DNA of 19,807 nt from a virus, in the UHGV virus genome UHGV-1783465. One strand, 5' to 3'. Shown piece by piece: positions 1 through 6,000 of this stretch (the first letter of the stretch is position 1; the number at the start of each line of letters is the position of its first letter). Made by a program: the position numbers.

Positions 1-3000
1 ACGTGAGATGCTGAAAACGAAAGCTCATCCTTCTGCACTGGCGCACGTCGCCAGAAAGTATTGTTAATAAAGCGTAGTGAAACTTTTGCACAAAACAATA
101 CAAACTGTGTGGATTTATCTTTTAGCGATAAAAATGGACCTATTTTTCTTTTGGCCGGGCGGTGGGGATGTTTAGCCGGTTGCTAAACGAGTAAAAGAGA
201 AGGAATTCATGGTGATGAAATGATCAATCTGCTGTTATTTCACGCTATCAATGCACTTTTGGCTGTTTTTCAGGCAAACAAACAAATTAGGGGTTTACAC
301 GCCGCATCGGGATGTTTATAGTGCGCGTCATTCCGGAAGTGTGGCCGAGCGGTTGAAGGCACCGGTCTTGAAAACCGGCGACTCGAAAGGGTTCCAGAGT
401 TCGAATCTCTGCGCTTCCGCCAAATAATCAAGGGGTTACCAAGTGGTAGCCCCTTTGCTTTTTGGACTCTTGGTATAAACTTGGTATACCAATTGGTATA
501 TTTTCAGTCTTTAATATCTGCGATATTTTTCCCGCGAGCGCCTCTTTTGATGTCTTTGTGGCCTCAAGGTTTTTCTGAACTAACGACCAGTTTCCTGATT
601 GAATGCAAATCCCCCAGACTGCTCAGTTTTTCCTTCATCTCCCTCCGACGGCGATAAATCTCGTCATTGCGATCGACCTGCGCCTGCGCCATCTGTCAGC
701 GCACCTGATATCACTACAGACATAGTTTTTCTCGCGATAAATTAAATCAGGAAGAGGCTTCCGGAGAGACGGGCCATTCAATGGCGTTATATGAGGTTTT
801 ATCAGTGATGGGGCTGAAATCCATCGCCTGCAGCGATTTCGCGTAAATGCGGTACGCTTTCAGTTTTTCCCTGTCTTCGTCACTGATTAATCCCAGCAGC
901 AGGTCTTTTTCCCATTCGCTGGTCATGATGCTGACCTGTTTTAACAGGGCATCACGCTCATCTTCCGCTTTAAGTTTGTAGTCAAAAACAAACTCACCAC
1001 TGCGGTAAAACCAGTATCCCGGTACGGTGATACGGCGGTTAGCGGTAATATCCGGGAATTCAATGATACTGACGTTAGTGGGTTCGATACCTGTCACATC
1101 CTTACCGACCCACACCACGCGCCCGCTGTCGTTATAGGCTGCTTTTATGGTGTCGCTGGCAAAATTCTTCTGTTCTTCATACCAGTTTTTGCCATCTTCC
1201 GAAAAAAGCCAGACAATACTATGCCGTTTTGTCATCTGATATTGCTCTGCCGTTTTCGGATTACCCGCAGTAATATTTTTTAAATGAAGCATTGTTATAC
1301 ACTCGCCGCGTTATACCAGGTGCCATTAATTAATTTCTGAAGGGGTCTTGAGTACAGCTTTAATGACGTTGAAGGATGCACATCACCACCAACCACGACA
1401 TACCCCGAAGGAACGGTAAAATCATCATCATAGTGTCCGTCGACCCTCTGGCCTCCCAGCCGGATATCCTCCACGCCCTCCGTCCTCTGCTTATAGCGGG
1501 CATCAAAATTTGCGTAGTCTGACGGTGTTACCCGCCCTGTAACGTTTACTGCTTTATTGCTCTGAATGCCGCCACTCTGAAAACGCAGCACATGCTGGTT
1601 ATTCGCATAAACATCCAGAATGCCGTCACCATTCTGTTTCAGGCCGGTATCGTTATCCCCGAAAGCAATTGAGTTTCCGCCCAGCGCGTTCTGAACGCCG
1701 ATACCCAGCGCACCATTGACCTGCGAACCACCGCCAACAGACACTTTATGCGACATGGATATTTCACCCGTCCGCAGATTAATAGTGAACGGGCGAAGTG
1801 GACCAATATCGCCATTCTCGCCCTGACCTTCACTGGTAGGGATAAGGTGCAGGCACTCTTCCGAGCGACGAAAAATCAGACCAAAGGCTTCGTTGAAAAT
1901 CCTCAGTGCATTAACACCACGGATTTTCAGCTCCCCGGTCATGGTGTCTCCATCACGCTGAACAGCATTTTTTGCCTTGTCCACCGCAGGTTTTAATCCG
2001 AGGTTTTCAACAGCCTCATCACTGTCTTCGACATCCGAAAGATTATTTTTTATCAGCAATGCCTCTTCGTTAATCGCACTGCCAACCAGTAATAATATGG
2101 CTTTATATAACTGGTCGTGTTCCTCTTTATTCAGTTCTATCCCGGCCTTCTCAATGACACCACAGATTTCCTCCTGAAGGGCATCCCACATGGCACTGTT
2201 CAACCAGGTGGCATGACGCCCTGTACGTATATTCCCGTCAGTAAATCCGTTCTTGCCCGGGCCAAATTTATCTTTAACTGCTGTCGGAGTGTCAATTCTG
2301 TGCATATTAAACCTCCCGTGAATGAAATATCAGAATTATGTCCTTGCCTGATTAAACAATTCCGCTGTGAAAGTCAGTTCACCCTTTGTGAAGGGAGTGT
2401 TCCCTCCTGGTTGGGTCATAAAACTCTGTGAGACAGTCGTCCAGCTGTTTGTGTCGCTTTGTACGCCATTCTCTGTAATCGTTGCGCCTTCATGGCTGCC
2501 ATTTTTCACTTTCCAGGCCAGGCGGTTATTGGGGGCATCAGCACCGCGGTAAGTGACCGAGGCCATAACGGCCACAACATCACTGTTGACGTTATCCACC
2601 GCACCAAACGTGGCCTGTGCTGCATTCAGGGACGGCGAGAGCATCAGATATCCGGCCTCGCTGTCAGAGGTGTTCAGCCCCGTGACAATATCTTTATTCA
2701 GTGAGTTTTTGGCGCTTCCACCGGTAAATGCCGTTACTGGGCTGTATCTGACCTCAATACTTCCGAGCAGGGCGGGTTCCGCGCTGTTATTTTTTCCGTA
2801 TGCCACTGTTCCACAGTACATATCACCCAGCATTAACGTGCCGGATGCACCCGATGAAAAAATATTGTCACCACTACCAATACTCACCTGAATTTTGTCA
2901 GTCCGGTCATCTGATACATAAAACGATGTATTTCCAACTAATGAGCGGTTGCAGTACAGACTGGCTGAGACATAGCCGTTTTCGTTTCGCGTTGCGAAAA

Positions 3001-6000
3001 TTTCATAGTAATAACTGGCTGCTTCATCAGGATACGGGGTTGTAAATGAATAGCCATTAATCCTGATGTGGGATGGCGAAGATGAATATTTCTTTCCCGC
3101 ACTTAATGTCAGACGAAATCCCAGCTGTACAGCTGAGGCTTTTAAGTCCGGAAGTGTGCTGTACAGTGTGACATATGAGGGTGTCGTGAAAATCAGCCCC
3201 GTTCTTTCTACAGTATTTACGGCCTGAGTGCCACGACAGACGGATGTTACAGAACCGGACATATCATTGATAAGCGTGACACCGTTTTCGTTCAGTGCTG
3301 AAATAATATTTGTTGAATAATAGTTCTCGCACAATCCCTCATTCGCCGGAATTTGTCGAAAACTTTCGAGTTTAATAATATTCAAAGCGGCTCTCCTTTT
3401 ATTTTATGTCATTCGGACGTGACCACAGCAAAATGCAGTCCCGGGTGATTAATCAATAACGGTTCACGGGTTCTGCTGGCTGTCTGCAACTGCATACTGT
3501 TAACCGGTACGGGGGAGCGGGTCCTGTATCCCGTCTGCAACTGTGCGCTGTTCATGGTCATGGGGTCCGTTGTCGGCAGACCTGAGTGCAATTGCGCCCT
3601 GCTGAGTACCAGTGGTTCTGCCATCGGACGGGCGGCATAAAAGTTAATCCGGTTAATTGTCAGCGGCTTACCTGTCAGTGCCGGAACAACCGCAAAATGA
3701 ACACCTGTATGATTAATCGCTAATGGCTCAGTCGTCTTGTGTCCGGCCTGAAAGGAGAGGCTGTTTATAGTCAGGGCGGCTTGTTGCCCTTCACCAGACT
3801 CATCCGGATATGCAAAAAGGACAACAGTATGCGACGGACATAATTTATTAATCACGCATTCCGCAACCGTATCACCCCACGTCCGGATCGGTGTGTTACA
3901 GGTGTCCGAACATGTCTGCCACTGAGCACCGGCATCCACCGGCAACGTCACACGCCAGAAATAACGCCAGCGATCACCCCATTCCGGATCGGGGCTTGCA
4001 TCCAGGTGCTGGAACTGTTCGATCGTCACGCCGGTATATCCCAGCGCCTCAAGCTGCTCCAGGAAGAACTGCTCATTTATGCCACCAGCCACATTGGCTT
4101 TTGCTTCCAGCCGTTGCTGACGCTGGCGTAATGTCTGGGCTCCAACAGGAGAGCAGGTGTCAGGTAAACCATACAATTCTTCATAACGTTCAATCAGCTC
4201 TGTTGACTGACCAGGATCGATTTCAGCCATCAGTTCATCAGTCCGCTGATGAACACGTACAAGCGATGGTGCCAGACCATCAAGCACGCCGTCGGTATCG
4301 CTCCATGCAGGCCCCGGCGGCATCAGTCCGTACAGCAGCTTTGTATAATCATCCTGTAACGAATCCATTATTTACTCCTTGCCGGGTCATAAGCCTGCCA
4401 GGTGATCTCGCCGAGCACCGGAAGCTCGGTCTCCCCCAGGTCAATATCCGATGAAGGGACGATTAACCGGTGGGCCACTTCACCAGCAGACAAACTGATG
4501 GCCTCACTGATTCTGGACAGATACATACGCCCCTCTGGCACACCATCCCGTAACATCAGTGCATTCAGCTCTGCTTTTATTGCAGTCCTGATCTGCGGTG
4601 TGTCTTTCGATAATGCAATCGTCATCGGGATGACTTTTTCTGTGGCACCGAATACATACAATCCACTTCCGGCAACCGGTGTCAGAGGAAGAATGTGCTC
4701 TCTGACTGCATTAATGACGCTTTCATCCGGAGCCGGATGTTCCGGATCGTTTGTCGCCACCATCACGCCAACCGTTCCAATGCCTTTCCAGTGTCTGAAA
4801 GTCCATGCACGGTTAATACCCTGAACTTCTTTCGCCCAGATAACATAATCAGGGTCTGCGCCCCCCTGTGGAATGTAGTAATAACGTTCCATAACGCGGG
4901 CACGCCATATTTCCAGATTTTCAATATCTTCACCGTCTGTAATGGTGTCCGCGTACCCTGTGGACGGCAGACCACTGACGGGTGTTCCCAGTTGCATGGC
5001 AATACCATCATCCGTATTCCCCGCCGCCCCCGGTTCATCTGCCACAATAGGCACCCGGAGAAGACCATCGGCTGCGGTCACCGTCGCCGTCGTGGTGAAG
5101 GTCACCTGATCATCACGCTGGATCTGCGTTCCCGCTGGCAATACAGGTGTTCCCTCTACGCCATCCCAGCGCACAAATCCCCGGGCTGTCACCGCATCTT
5201 TTCGCAGGCAGCGTTTGATTCTGGCGTGCCGGTACAACCAGTCTTCATCACACATGTCCGGCAACAGATTTCTGGCAAGATAATCGATATACCCGTACAA
5301 CGTGTGTACGGCTGCAGCCTGTACACGGGCATACACTTCCGCATCCATACGACGAAGCAGCGTATCCTGCTCAAAGCGGGTTAATAAATCGCTCCGGATC
5401 ATAGAAATAAGTTGCGGAAGGCCGGGGCGATAAAACTGACTGTCAGCCATTCAGTTCACTCCAGATATCATCAAAAATAATGTTGTGAATATTGCCGTCA
5501 CGCTGGTAAATGGTAATGGCAAGTGCCAGCGAGTCTGTCCCGGTCCGGACAGCGTTAATATCAAGACGGGAAGCAACACCATCCTCCACCATCCACGCCA
5601 GCGCCTCACGGGCATAATCTCTGGCAAGCTGCGGGGTTTTATTTGTCAGCTTGCTGCGTCGCAGCAGATACAGACGCGACCCCGTGCGATCATTCTGAAC
5701 AGCAGGCCAGGTATCCCCCCACCATCCAAATATCTGCGGTGCATCATCATCCCGCCCGGCACGCCGCCAGGTAAAAAGCGAAATAATCACAGCACGCGTC
5801 AGAAGGTCGAGCAAAGCCCCGGTCGACACGGGTCGCCCGTTAACATTAATCATCATGATTTTCAGCCCATCGGTTGATCCGGCGTGTCAGTGATCCCGCC
5901 ACCATCACCATTTTCGGTGTGTTTGTGGGCATTGTAGGTCTGCCGCATTTGCTGCATGCTGAGTCCGCCACTGTCGCAATTGTCAGTAATATCGGCGGTG

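What the first reader, a model, noticed from the sequence alone, without database searches (positions are those of the whole stretch)
2336..3385. Divergent AT-rich ORF with TTG start at the fibre position, upstream of a complete P2-type fibre/chaperone cassette
Two fibre-like genes sit in tandem after the gp48-like gene. The distal one (1295-2305) has its own strong SD and a P2 gpH-like C-terminus with a matching gpG-like chaperone. The proximal 349-aa ORF uses a TTG start behind a strong SD, is clearly more AT-rich than the surrounding tail genes by eye, and matches no fibre motif I recognise. It may be a second receptor-binding protein, a fibre-proximal adaptor, or recently acquired cargo placed in the host-range module.
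Basis: partly seen in the sequence, partly recalled or inferred. Interest (0 to 1): 0.55.

Follow-up and report, generated by a model that had tools for sequence, protein, structure and literature searches.

The report
Portable add-on head for phage tails
The unannotated 349-residue gene is half of a small two-part cassette (a repeat "handle" grafted onto a baseplate protein, plus a lectin-shaped protein) that has moved between unrelated prophage tails and most likely gives the phage a second, sugar-directed way of gripping its host.

Summary
The ORF is real: 2336-3385 on the minus strand, 349 aa, TTG start 7 nt after AAGGAG. It is not a fibre and not the proximal half of one. It belongs to the tiny, unnamed family phrog_8291, which has no Pfam, NCBIfam or PADLOC hit.

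Its AlphaFold model is confident (pLDDT 91) and shows two beta-sandwiches. One is a concanavalin-A-like lectin/glucanase jelly roll. The whole chain superposes on ~350-aa tail-cluster proteins of Casjensviridae phages, one of which is labelled a virion structural protein.

A sibling prophage lacks window 2316-3798. This 1.48-kb insertion adds the ORF and also ~130 residues (seven ~17-aa repeats) to the C-terminus of the gp48/YmfQ wedge protein. The same 1.4 kb is 97% identical in an otherwise unrelated Mu-like prophage.

In every related locus with enough sequence (about 40, ~10 architectures), a family member accompanies such a repeat array. The array is fused to gp48, P2 gpI or a side-fibre (Stf-type) N-terminal anchor, or encoded as a free 64-90-aa mini-protein.

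Best reading (inferred, 0.55): the repeats form an arm or docking handle and the ORF is a detachable glycan-binding head, i.e. a second receptor-binding device. No tool here could test the docking itself.

The parts
2336..3385 (-). 349-aa ORF, member of phrog_8291. Predicted two-domain beta-sandwich protein with a ConA-like lectin/glucanase jelly roll; the proposed detachable receptor-binding head.
3386..3408 (-). 23-nt spacer between the gp48 stop codon (3411-3409) and the ORF start; contains SD AAGGAG (3398-3393).
   Evidence: Read directly from the sequence. The same 22-30-nt spacing occurs in 25 of 27 IMG/VR loci.
3409..3798 (-). C-terminal extension of the gp48/YmfQ wedge protein (aa 191-319 plus stop): an acidic linker, then seven ~17-20-aa repeats (consensus P-L-x-I-N-R-x-x-L-Q-S-G-x4-E). 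The last repeat ends in a hydrophobic strand plus acidic tail (LHFAVVTSE). This is the proposed arm or docking handle.
   Evidence: Absent from the sibling prophage and from about 110 of 116 YmfQ clusters, which are 187-211 aa. Repeat parsing. No DNA-level tandem repeat. No Pfam, PHROG or PDB match. AF2 pLDDT below 50 for residues 190-319.
3799..4368 (-). Core of the gp48/YmfQ baseplate wedge protein (aa 1-190), the carrier of the extension.
   Evidence: PF10076 Phage_Mu_Gp48 E=1.7e-24 over residues 13-187; phrog_203 baseplate wedge subunit. 95.5% nucleotide identity to the ETEC1734 prophage from 3799 onwards.
2306..2335 (-). 30-nt spacer at the distal edge of the inserted block. It supplies the fibre gene's SD (GGGAGG 2317-2312).
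   Evidence: In the sibling prophage the fibre ATG instead overlaps the end of YmfQ.
1295..2305 (-). Ordinary tail fibre (336 aa) with its own baseplate-docking N-terminus. Context only, not part of the inserted block.
   Evidence: phrog_6859 tail fiber E=5e-183; PF20744 gp37_trimer. Collinear and 88% identical with the fibre that directly follows YmfQ in ETEC1734.
747..1292 (-). Tail fibre assembly chaperone (181 aa) for the ordinary fibre. Context only.
   Evidence: PF02413 Caudo_TAP E=4.6e-22; phrog_136.

Best explanation
The ORF is the second gene of a portable two-part tail accessory module. Part one is an array of 3-8 tandem ~17-19-aa repeats ending in a short hydrophobic strand and an acidic tail. 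This array is grafted onto the C-terminus of whichever virion-anchored protein lies upstream; here that is the baseplate wedge protein gp48/YmfQ, residues ~197-319. Part two is the 349-aa protein, made of two beta-sandwich domains, one of them a concanavalin-A-like lectin/glucanase jelly roll.

Both parts sit in the late tail operon and are expressed with the tail genes. I propose that the repeat array projects from each of the six wedges as an arm or handle. The 349-aa protein docks on it non-covalently, most likely on the conserved terminal unit, and serves as an extra head that recognises surface polysaccharide. The phage would then carry two receptor-binding devices: the classical fibre, docked on the gp48 core, and this head.

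Shown here: the insertion, its horizontal transfer, the invariable pairing of repeats with a family member, the fold, and the operon position. Inferred: virion incorporation, docking, and glycan binding.
For: (1) Insertion. Against the ETEC1734 prophage, the window aligns at 682-2315 (88%) and 3799-6500 (95%). Window 2316-3798 is extra and begins right after YmfQ residue 190.

(2) Mobility as a unit. Window 2341-3752 is 97% identical in the Mu-like prophage of strain AF34 (com/mom present), with no alignable flanks.

(3) Pairing. In 14 individually examined loci and 27 of 27 usable IMG/VR loci, a family member shares the tail cluster with a repeat-bearing protein, usually 1-30 nt upstream. The carrier differs between loci: gp48/YmfQ, P2 gpI, a side-fibre (Stf-type, PF08400) N-terminal anchor, or a free 64-90-aa mini-protein. 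These occur in myovirus-type and lambdoid siphovirus-type tail clusters.

(4) Ordinary YmfQ proteins are 187-211 aa in about 110 of 116 clusters. Only the four clusters with the repeats (319-324 aa) are genuinely extended.

(5) Fold. The model is confident. ConA-like matches include carbohydrate-binding modules, lectins and polysaccharide lyases. The full chain also superposes on a 352-aa AchV4 protein labelled 'virion structural protein'. Its length matches AchV4_0026, one of the tail-cluster proteins detected in virions by mass spectrometry (PMC7996906).

(6) Operon position. SD-linked 23-nt and 30-nt spacers, and no flanking promoter- or terminator-like site above the shuffled expectation.

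(7) Variation has the polarity usual for receptor-binding proteins. Among distant members, residues 201-250 stay 56-67% identical while 301-349 fall to 20-33%.

(8) In Mu the wedge holds one gp48, and the normal fibre docks on a gp48 loop (residues 133-155). A C-terminal add-on would therefore not compete with the fibre (PMC11915804).
Against: No experiment or structure shows the protein in a virion or bound to the repeats. No sequenced cultured phage in INPHARED carries either part, so all evidence comes from prophages.

The extension alone is predicted with pLDDT below 50. That fits a partner-dependent or oligomeric fold, but it also fits a shallow alignment.

The Casjensviridae look-alikes share no detectable sequence homology (hhalign probability 0.3%), and no repeat handle is apparent in the gene upstream of them.

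In three loci the member is separated from the repeat-bearing gene by the fibre and chaperone genes.

Conserved polar residues on the central strands (Q87, R91, K99, Y125, Y126, E128, Y144, D188, Y190) could mark an enzyme site rather than a lectin site.
Confidence: 0.55

Rival explanations
1. The protein is attached to the virion in the same way, but the head is an enzyme: a polysaccharide lyase or hydrolase (depolymerase) that cuts capsule, O-antigen or colanic acid, rather than a passive lectin.
Against: Non-catalytic modules and lectins score equally well. No lyase or hydrolase family reaches significance by sequence.
Confidence: 0.15
2. The protein is an assembly factor or cap for the repeat arm, a functional analogue of tail-fibre assembly proteins, which are likewise encoded directly downstream of the fibre they serve. 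It would not itself be the receptor-binding element.
For: The gene lies immediately downstream of the repeat-bearing gene and is strictly paired with it. The repeat arm is not predicted to fold alone.
Against: It has no similarity to Caudo_TAP or DUF4376 chaperones. At 349 aa it is roughly twice the length of the 181-aa chaperone encoded in this window. It has a lectin-type fold and a variable C-terminal domain, as expected of a surface-exposed recognition module.
Confidence: 0.1
3. The ORF is non-structural cargo (a moron), for example a superinfection-exclusion, defence or virulence factor that merely sits in the host-range region.
For: It has lower GC than the baseplate genes and is patchily distributed: 64 of 5426 complete E. 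coli genomes, among them several strains listed as ETEC. It was clearly acquired horizontally.
Against: It has no promoter or terminator of its own and is embedded between late structural genes with SD-linked spacers. There is no PADLOC hit. The N-terminus (MNIIKLESFRQIPANEG...) has no signal peptide or hydrophobic segment (read). It is always paired with a repeat extension on a structural protein, which a free-standing cargo gene would not need.
Confidence: 0.07
4. The ORF is simply the proximal half of one ordinary two-gene fibre.
For: It occupies the position between the wedge gene and the fibre gene.
Against: No fibre family matches it. The model is globular beta-sandwich, not a fibrous shaft. 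The downstream fibre is full length, with its own N-terminal domain, and follows YmfQ directly in the sibling prophage. The family also occurs after Stf-type anchors and at the very end of tail clusters, where no distal fibre gene follows.
Confidence: 0.02

Closest known systems
gp38 adhesin of T2/T6-type phages, bound to the tip of the long tail fibre protein gp37 (own knowledge)
   Same: A separately encoded protein, specified immediately downstream of the protein it attaches to. It docks on that protein's C-terminal end and supplies receptor specificity. It is exchanged between phages as a host-range cassette.
   Different: The proteins are unrelated by sequence (no hit). gp38 sits on a long trimeric fibre, not on a wedge protein. 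No tandem ~17-aa repeat handle is involved. Docking of the ORF is inferred here, not shown.
Canonical Mu/P2 arrangement: the fibre (gp49/gpH) N-terminus docks on the wedge protein gp48/gpI (PMC11915804)
   Same: The same wedge protein family (PF10076) serves as the platform for a receptor-binding device. The ordinary fibre and chaperone are also present in this window.
   Different: In Mu the fibre binds a loop of gp48 (residues 133-155). Here a second attachment site is added as a ~130-aa C-terminal repeat extension, which about 95% of YmfQ clusters lack.
~330-380-aa tail-cluster proteins of Casjensviridae siphoviruses (AchV4_0026 and neighbours, Serratia phage JS26, Providencia phage Kokobel1)
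   Same: Full-length structural match, TM 0.58-0.68. They are encoded at the distal end of the tail module, just after the fibre gene. AchV4_0025 and _0026 were detected in virions by LC-MS/MS (PMC7996906).
   Different: No detectable sequence homology (hhalign probability 0.3%). No repeat motif is apparent by eye in the product of the gene upstream of AchV4_0025/0026, the putative tail fibre AchV4_0024. Their function is also unknown.
Concanavalin-A-like lectin/glucanase superfamily (legume lectins, CBM4/22, PL7/PL14/PL20/PL36 lyases, GH16, GH131)
   Different: Sequence identity is 4-15% and no family-level sequence match exists. No ligand or catalytic site was established. There is an extra second beta-sandwich domain.
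Accessory carbohydrate-binding baseplate proteins of lactococcal siphophages, such as BppA of Tuc2009 (own knowledge)
   Same: An optional extra baseplate component with a carbohydrate-binding beta-sandwich, which supplements the main receptor-binding protein.
   Different: A different host type, tail type and attachment mode. No sequence relation was tested or expected.

Membership tests
phrog_8291 (PHROGs, function unknown) | Full-length match to the family profile | tested here: met
   E=8.1e-244, residues 1-349 on profile positions 1-349 of 349. The family holds only 27 clusters at 90% identity among 5.8 billion proteins, and 17 representatives among 1.84 billion.
Mu gp49 / P2 gpH-type tail fibre | Sequence match to a tail-fibre family (N-terminal baseplate-docking domain, shaft repeats or C-terminal tip) | tested here: not met
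   No Pfam, PHROG or NCBIfam fibre family matches the ORF, whereas the neighbouring 336-aa gene matches 20 or more fibre PHROGs.
Mu gp49 / P2 gpH-type tail fibre | Elongated fibrous (trimeric shaft) architecture | tested here: not met
   The AF2 monomer model is a compact two-domain beta-sandwich with pTM 0.90.
Concanavalin-A-like lectin/glucanase fold superfamily | Jelly-roll beta-sandwich that superposes on superfamily members | tested here: met
Concanavalin-A-like lectin/glucanase fold superfamily | Carbohydrate binding or cleavage in the concave cleft | not testable with these tools
   Model coordinates could not be retrieved to map the invariant residues, and there is no biochemical assay.
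Jelly-roll polysaccharide lyases (PL7/PL14/PL20/PL36) | Family sequence signature and catalytic Tyr/His with Arg/Gln/Lys in the cleft | tested here: inconclusive
   No sequence match to any lyase family or PDB chain. Invariant Q, R, K and Y residues exist, but their spatial arrangement is unknown.
Tail fibre assembly chaperones (Caudo_TAP PF02413 / DUF4376) | Match to the chaperone profile | tested here: not met
   No hit for the ORF, whereas the 181-aa gene at 747-1292 matches at E=4.6e-22.
Phage_Mu_Gp48 / YmfQ wedge protein (the upstream partner gene) | PF10076 domain | tested here: met
   E=1.7e-24 over residues 13-187. Residues 191-319 lie outside the domain and match nothing.
Anti-phage defence systems (PADLOC-DB) | Match to any defence-protein profile | tested here: not met
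   Zero families at E up to 0.1, for both the ORF and the extended gp48.
Phage moron (autonomously expressed cargo) | Own promoter and terminator flanking the gene | tested here: not met
   There is no promoter-like site in the 23-nt spacer upstream and no terminator-like site between the ORF and the fibre gene. Region-wide counts are close to the shuffled expectation: 3 promoter-like sites against 4.9, and 8 terminator-like sites against 3.9.

The most novel reading that the evidence does not exclude
The repeat array and the jelly-roll protein form a general plug-and-socket system for tailed phages. Any virion protein that acquires the ~17-aa repeats at its C-terminus can display the head, whether it is a wedge protein of Mu- or P2-type myoviruses or a side-fibre anchor of lambdoid siphoviruses. 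In the strongest version, each repeat binds one head, so that 3-8 heads hang from every arm (up to ~40 per baseplate) as a multivalent lectin brush. This attachment principle has not been described for phage receptor-binding proteins, and it could be reused directly for host-range engineering.
Probability: 0.15. Interest if true: 0.8.

Novelty: new variant of a known kind. Interest (0 to 1): 0.55.

Why it matters
Host range of temperate coliphages is usually read from their fibre genes. This block would be a second specificity determinant, invisible to current annotation. Its head is called 'hypothetical protein' in every one of the 64 carrier genomes found among 5426 complete E. coli genomes, several of them listed as ETEC strains. 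Its handle causes PGAP to mislabel intact wedge and fibre-anchor genes as pseudogenes.

If docking is confirmed, the same ~17-aa repeat handle works on three unrelated anchor proteins and on both contractile and non-contractile tails. That would make it a compact natural adaptor for attaching new binding modules to phages or tailocins. It also gives a first, testable function to an orphan family (phrog_8291), and perhaps to the structurally similar but uncharacterised virion proteins of Casjensviridae.

Tried and rejected
1. Paired or fused structure prediction (repeat arm, linker and ORF, with 10 cognate pairs aligned) to test docking.

2. Foldseek against afdb50. The library was not installed.

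3. Homologue search with the extension alone. Only one partial hit came back, probably because the word index handles the repeats poorly. Pairing was established from genomic contexts instead.

4. tblastn of the ORF, of a distant member (P0030) and of the extension against 50,697 phage genomes. No match, so no cultured phage carries the module.

5. GTDB representative genomes. Only one extra locus was found, in E. albertii.

6. Profile search of the family, and phmmer searches of two repeat arms, against PDB sequences. Nothing meaningful; the PEX14 hits at E about 0.005 are compositional.

7. Pfam and PHROG scans of five or six repeat arms and mini-proteins at permissive thresholds. Nothing was found.

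8. hhalign of the family profile against AchV4_0026. No homology.

9. Tandem Repeats Finder on 3300-3900. No DNA-level repeat, so the protein repeats are old and diverged rather than recent slippage.

10. From memory, the 'x-P-L-x-V/I' turn of the repeats resembles adenovirus and reovirus triple beta-spiral shaft repeats. No tool result supports this, and gp48 is monomeric per wedge in Mu, which argues against an obligate trimer. I kept it only as an untested idea.

11. Literature searches (YmfQ, gp48, wedge C-terminal extension, Stf modularity, Casjensviridae). No description of this module was found.

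
Full report
**1. What is at the coordinates**

The window is the tail end of a prophage integrated at serT. tRNA-Ser(TGA) lies at 335-422. The nearly identical prophage of E. coli AST215 has hyaA beyond the tRNA, lambdoid early genes, an HK97-type head and a Mu/SfV-like contractile tail. All tail genes are on the minus strand.

- The ORF at 2336-3385 (349 aa) is real and starts with TTG (3385-3383), 7 nt after AAGGAG (3398-3393).
- PGAP annotates the same CDS as 'hypothetical protein'.
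- Homologues start at the same residue, some with ATG.
- Upstream lies a gp48/YmfQ wedge gene (3409-4368, PF10076).
- Downstream lie a bona fide tail fibre (1295-2305; phrog_6859; weak gp37_trimer hit) and a Caudo_TAP chaperone (747-1292).

**2. Base composition**

The ORF is 46.9% GC, against 53.2-54.1% for the five baseplate genes. It falls in the lowest 0.6% of equal-sized windows. However, the fibre (49.0%) and chaperone (46.5%) are similarly low, and only the 5' half of the ORF is strikingly AT-rich (42.1% versus 51.6%). The ORF therefore shares the composition of the host-range end of the operon and does not stand alone.

**3. What the protein is**

It has no Pfam, NCBIfam or PADLOC match. 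It matches phrog_8291, of unknown function, from end to end.

The family is tiny. It comprises 27 clusters among 5.8 billion proteins and 17 representatives among 1.84 billion. Every named member is from E. coli or Raoultella, and all are called hypothetical. It occurs in 64 of 5426 complete E. coli genomes. No sequenced phage in INPHARED has it.

With a 24-sequence alignment, AlphaFold2 gives a confident all-beta model (pLDDT 91.2, pTM 0.90).

- Against predicted viral structures, the whole chain superposes (TM 0.58-0.68) on ~350-aa proteins of Casjensviridae siphoviruses.
- The best of these is a 352-aa AchV4 protein whose length matches AchV4_0026. That gene lies just after the fibre gene, and its product was detected in virions by LC-MS/MS (PMC7996906).
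- No sequence homology to it is detectable, so this is a fold-level analogy only.

**4. The ORF is half of an inserted, mobile block**

A sibling prophage in ETEC1734 aligns with window 682-2315 (88%) and 3799-6500 (95%). It lacks 2316-3798.

- In the sibling, YmfQ is 196 aa and ends '...YPDEDEDAQD', and the fibre ATG overlaps its last codons.
- In the window, the sequence diverges right after 'YPDE' (residue 190). YmfQ continues for another 129 residues, then comes the ORF, then a 30-nt spacer that supplies a new SD for the fibre.
- The same 1.41 kb (2341-3752) is 97% identical in the Mu-like prophage of strain AF34, which carries com/mom. There it sits between a different gp48 core and a different fibre, with no alignable flanks.

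The unit of transfer is therefore 'gp48 extension plus ORF'. Of 116 YmfQ clusters retrieved, about 110 are 187-211 aa. Only the four with this extension are genuinely longer; the remaining long entries are mis-fused gene calls.

**5. The extension is a repeat array that always accompanies the family**

Residues ~197-319 of the window's gp48 form seven units of 17-20 aa with the consensus P-L-x-I-N-R-x-x-L-Q-S-G-x4-E. In the last unit the 'LQSG' is replaced by a hydrophobic strand and an acidic end (LHFAVVTSE). There is no DNA-level tandem repeat, and nothing matches in Pfam, PHROGs or the PDB.

I examined the context of family members down to about 30% identity. In every locus a repeat array of this type (3-8 units) sits in the same tail cluster, but on different carriers:

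| Carrier of the repeats | Loci |
|---|---|
| gp48/YmfQ | window, L004, L012, L019, L021, L038-40 |
| P2 gpI, with a variant 18-aa unit (SVPVKAINGTxINAGNVL) | L014; the partial contig L015 shows a related unit |
| N-terminal anchor domain of Stf-type side fibres (PF08400) | L008, L010, L011, L013, L020, L046-49 |
| Free 64-90-aa mini-protein lying between a fibre-like protein and the member | L006, L016, L017 |

- These loci include Mu-type and P2-type contractile-tail clusters and lambdoid (gpJ-bearing) siphovirus clusters.
- In 25 of 27 IMG/VR loci the repeat-bearing ORF ends 22-30 nt before the member.
- In the other two, and on an AF34 plasmid, the order is gp48-with-repeats, then fibre, then chaperone, then member.
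- Many arrays end alike, with a hydrophobic strand followed by (T/S)(S/E)E(V).

**6. How it most likely works**

The ORF lies inside the late operon. It has SD-linked 23-nt and 30-nt spacers, and it has no promoter or terminator of its own. It has no signal peptide.

Its invariable pairing with a C-terminal graft on structural proteins argues that the two parts interact physically, especially because those carriers share nothing except being anchored in the tail. A lectin/CBM-type fold, a position in the host-range region and a variable C-terminal third all fit an exposed recognition module. Among distant members, residues 201-250 stay 56-67% identical while 301-349 fall to 20-33%.

In Mu each wedge holds one gp48, and the normal fibre docks on a gp48 loop (residues 133-155) (PMC11915804). 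A C-terminal arm would therefore add a second device without displacing the fibre.

My best explanation (0.55) is that the repeats form an arm or handle projecting from each wedge. The 349-aa protein docks on it, most likely on the conserved terminal unit, as a glycan-binding head. That would make it a second receptor-binding device.

AlphaFold gives the extension pLDDT below 50 when modelled alone. This fits a fold that needs a partner or oligomerisation, but the alignment is only four sequences deep there.

**7. Rivals**

- **An enzymatic head (0.15).** A depolymerase instead of a lectin is compatible with the lyase matches and with invariant Q, R, K, Y, E and D residues on the central strands.
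- **An assembly factor or cap for the arm (0.10).** This fits the gene order, but not the size, fold or variability.
- **A non-structural moron (0.07).** This fits the patchy distribution and lower GC. It does not fit the operon structure, the lack of export signals, the absence of defence-family hits or the obligate pairing.
- **The proximal half of an ordinary fibre (0.02).** It is rejected because there is no fibre homology, the model is globular, and the fibre is complete and functions without the ORF in the sibling prophage.

**8. Comparison with what is known**

- Functionally, the nearest parallel is the T2-type gp38 adhesin. It is a separately encoded head, specified just downstream of gp37, that docks on the fibre's C-terminal end (own knowledge).
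- Accessory carbohydrate-binding baseplate proteins such as Tuc2009 BppA are another parallel (own knowledge).
- The present module differs in three ways. It uses a tandem-repeat handle, it attaches to a wedge protein, and it is portable across three anchor families and two tail types.

I found no description of it in the literature library. I file it as a new variant of a known kind (accessory receptor-binding modules), not as categorically new, and I stress that docking and binding are inferred.

**9. Verdict**

The finding is more interesting than 'a divergent ORF', because it exposes a recurrent, unannotated two-part host-range cassette. Interest is 0.55. It would be about 0.8 if the plug-and-socket mechanism, especially multivalent display, were demonstrated.

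Noticed in passing
window 3409-4368; also L001 6085-6669, L002 6181-6765, L021 1105-1668, L020 1730-2653: PGAP marks the repeat-extended wedge and Stf-anchor genes as pseudogenes ('incomplete; missing C-terminus') in AST215, AST217, the AF34 plasmid and O8:H8 16F5M1D1. The reading frames are in fact intact (318-405 aa). This is a systematic annotation artefact caused by the unmodelled repeat extension.
   Followed up: partly
window 564-692 (minus strand): A 3' remnant of a DUF4376 gene. Relative to the ETEC1734 sibling (L003 584-2982), about 2.4 kb is missing here, which in the sibling encodes a Stf-type second fibre (664 aa) and most of its DUF4376 partner. This prophage therefore lost one accessory fibre while carrying the gp48-extension/ORF module.
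   Followed up: partly
window 8843-9414 versus L005 30513-31701: This is the only segment where the window differs from the AST215 prophage, which is otherwise 99.5-99.7% identical. The 3' end of the tape-measure gene and a 160-aa hypothetical gene of AST215 are replaced by a shorter, unrelated 572-nt stretch.
   Followed up: no
L021 (NZ_OZ547097.1, 249-kb plasmid of strain AF34) 1021-4556: The same strain carries a second copy of the module on a large plasmid that encodes a contractile-tail cluster (possibly a phage-plasmid). The gene order there is rearranged: gp48 with repeats, fibre, chaperone, family member. Carrier genomes have a median of two matching places.
   Followed up: partly
L006 5002-5988, L016 3742-4999, L017 1661-4999: In some lambdoid and unclassified tail clusters the repeats are on a free 64-90-aa mini-protein that starts M-x-x-x-L-L-x-G-(K/R). 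It follows a fibre-like protein with a shared, unannotated C-terminal domain ('...LP(A/E)GRA...WP...W...P..G..R...'). This suggests a three-part variant: anchor, mini-adaptor and head.
   Followed up: partly
L002 (AST217) 3593-4702 versus window 896-1765: In the serT prophage of AST217 the module is kept at 98% identity, but the distal part of the ordinary fibre and its chaperone are swapped (369-aa 'hypothetical' fibre). The two receptor-binding devices are thus exchanged independently.
   Followed up: no
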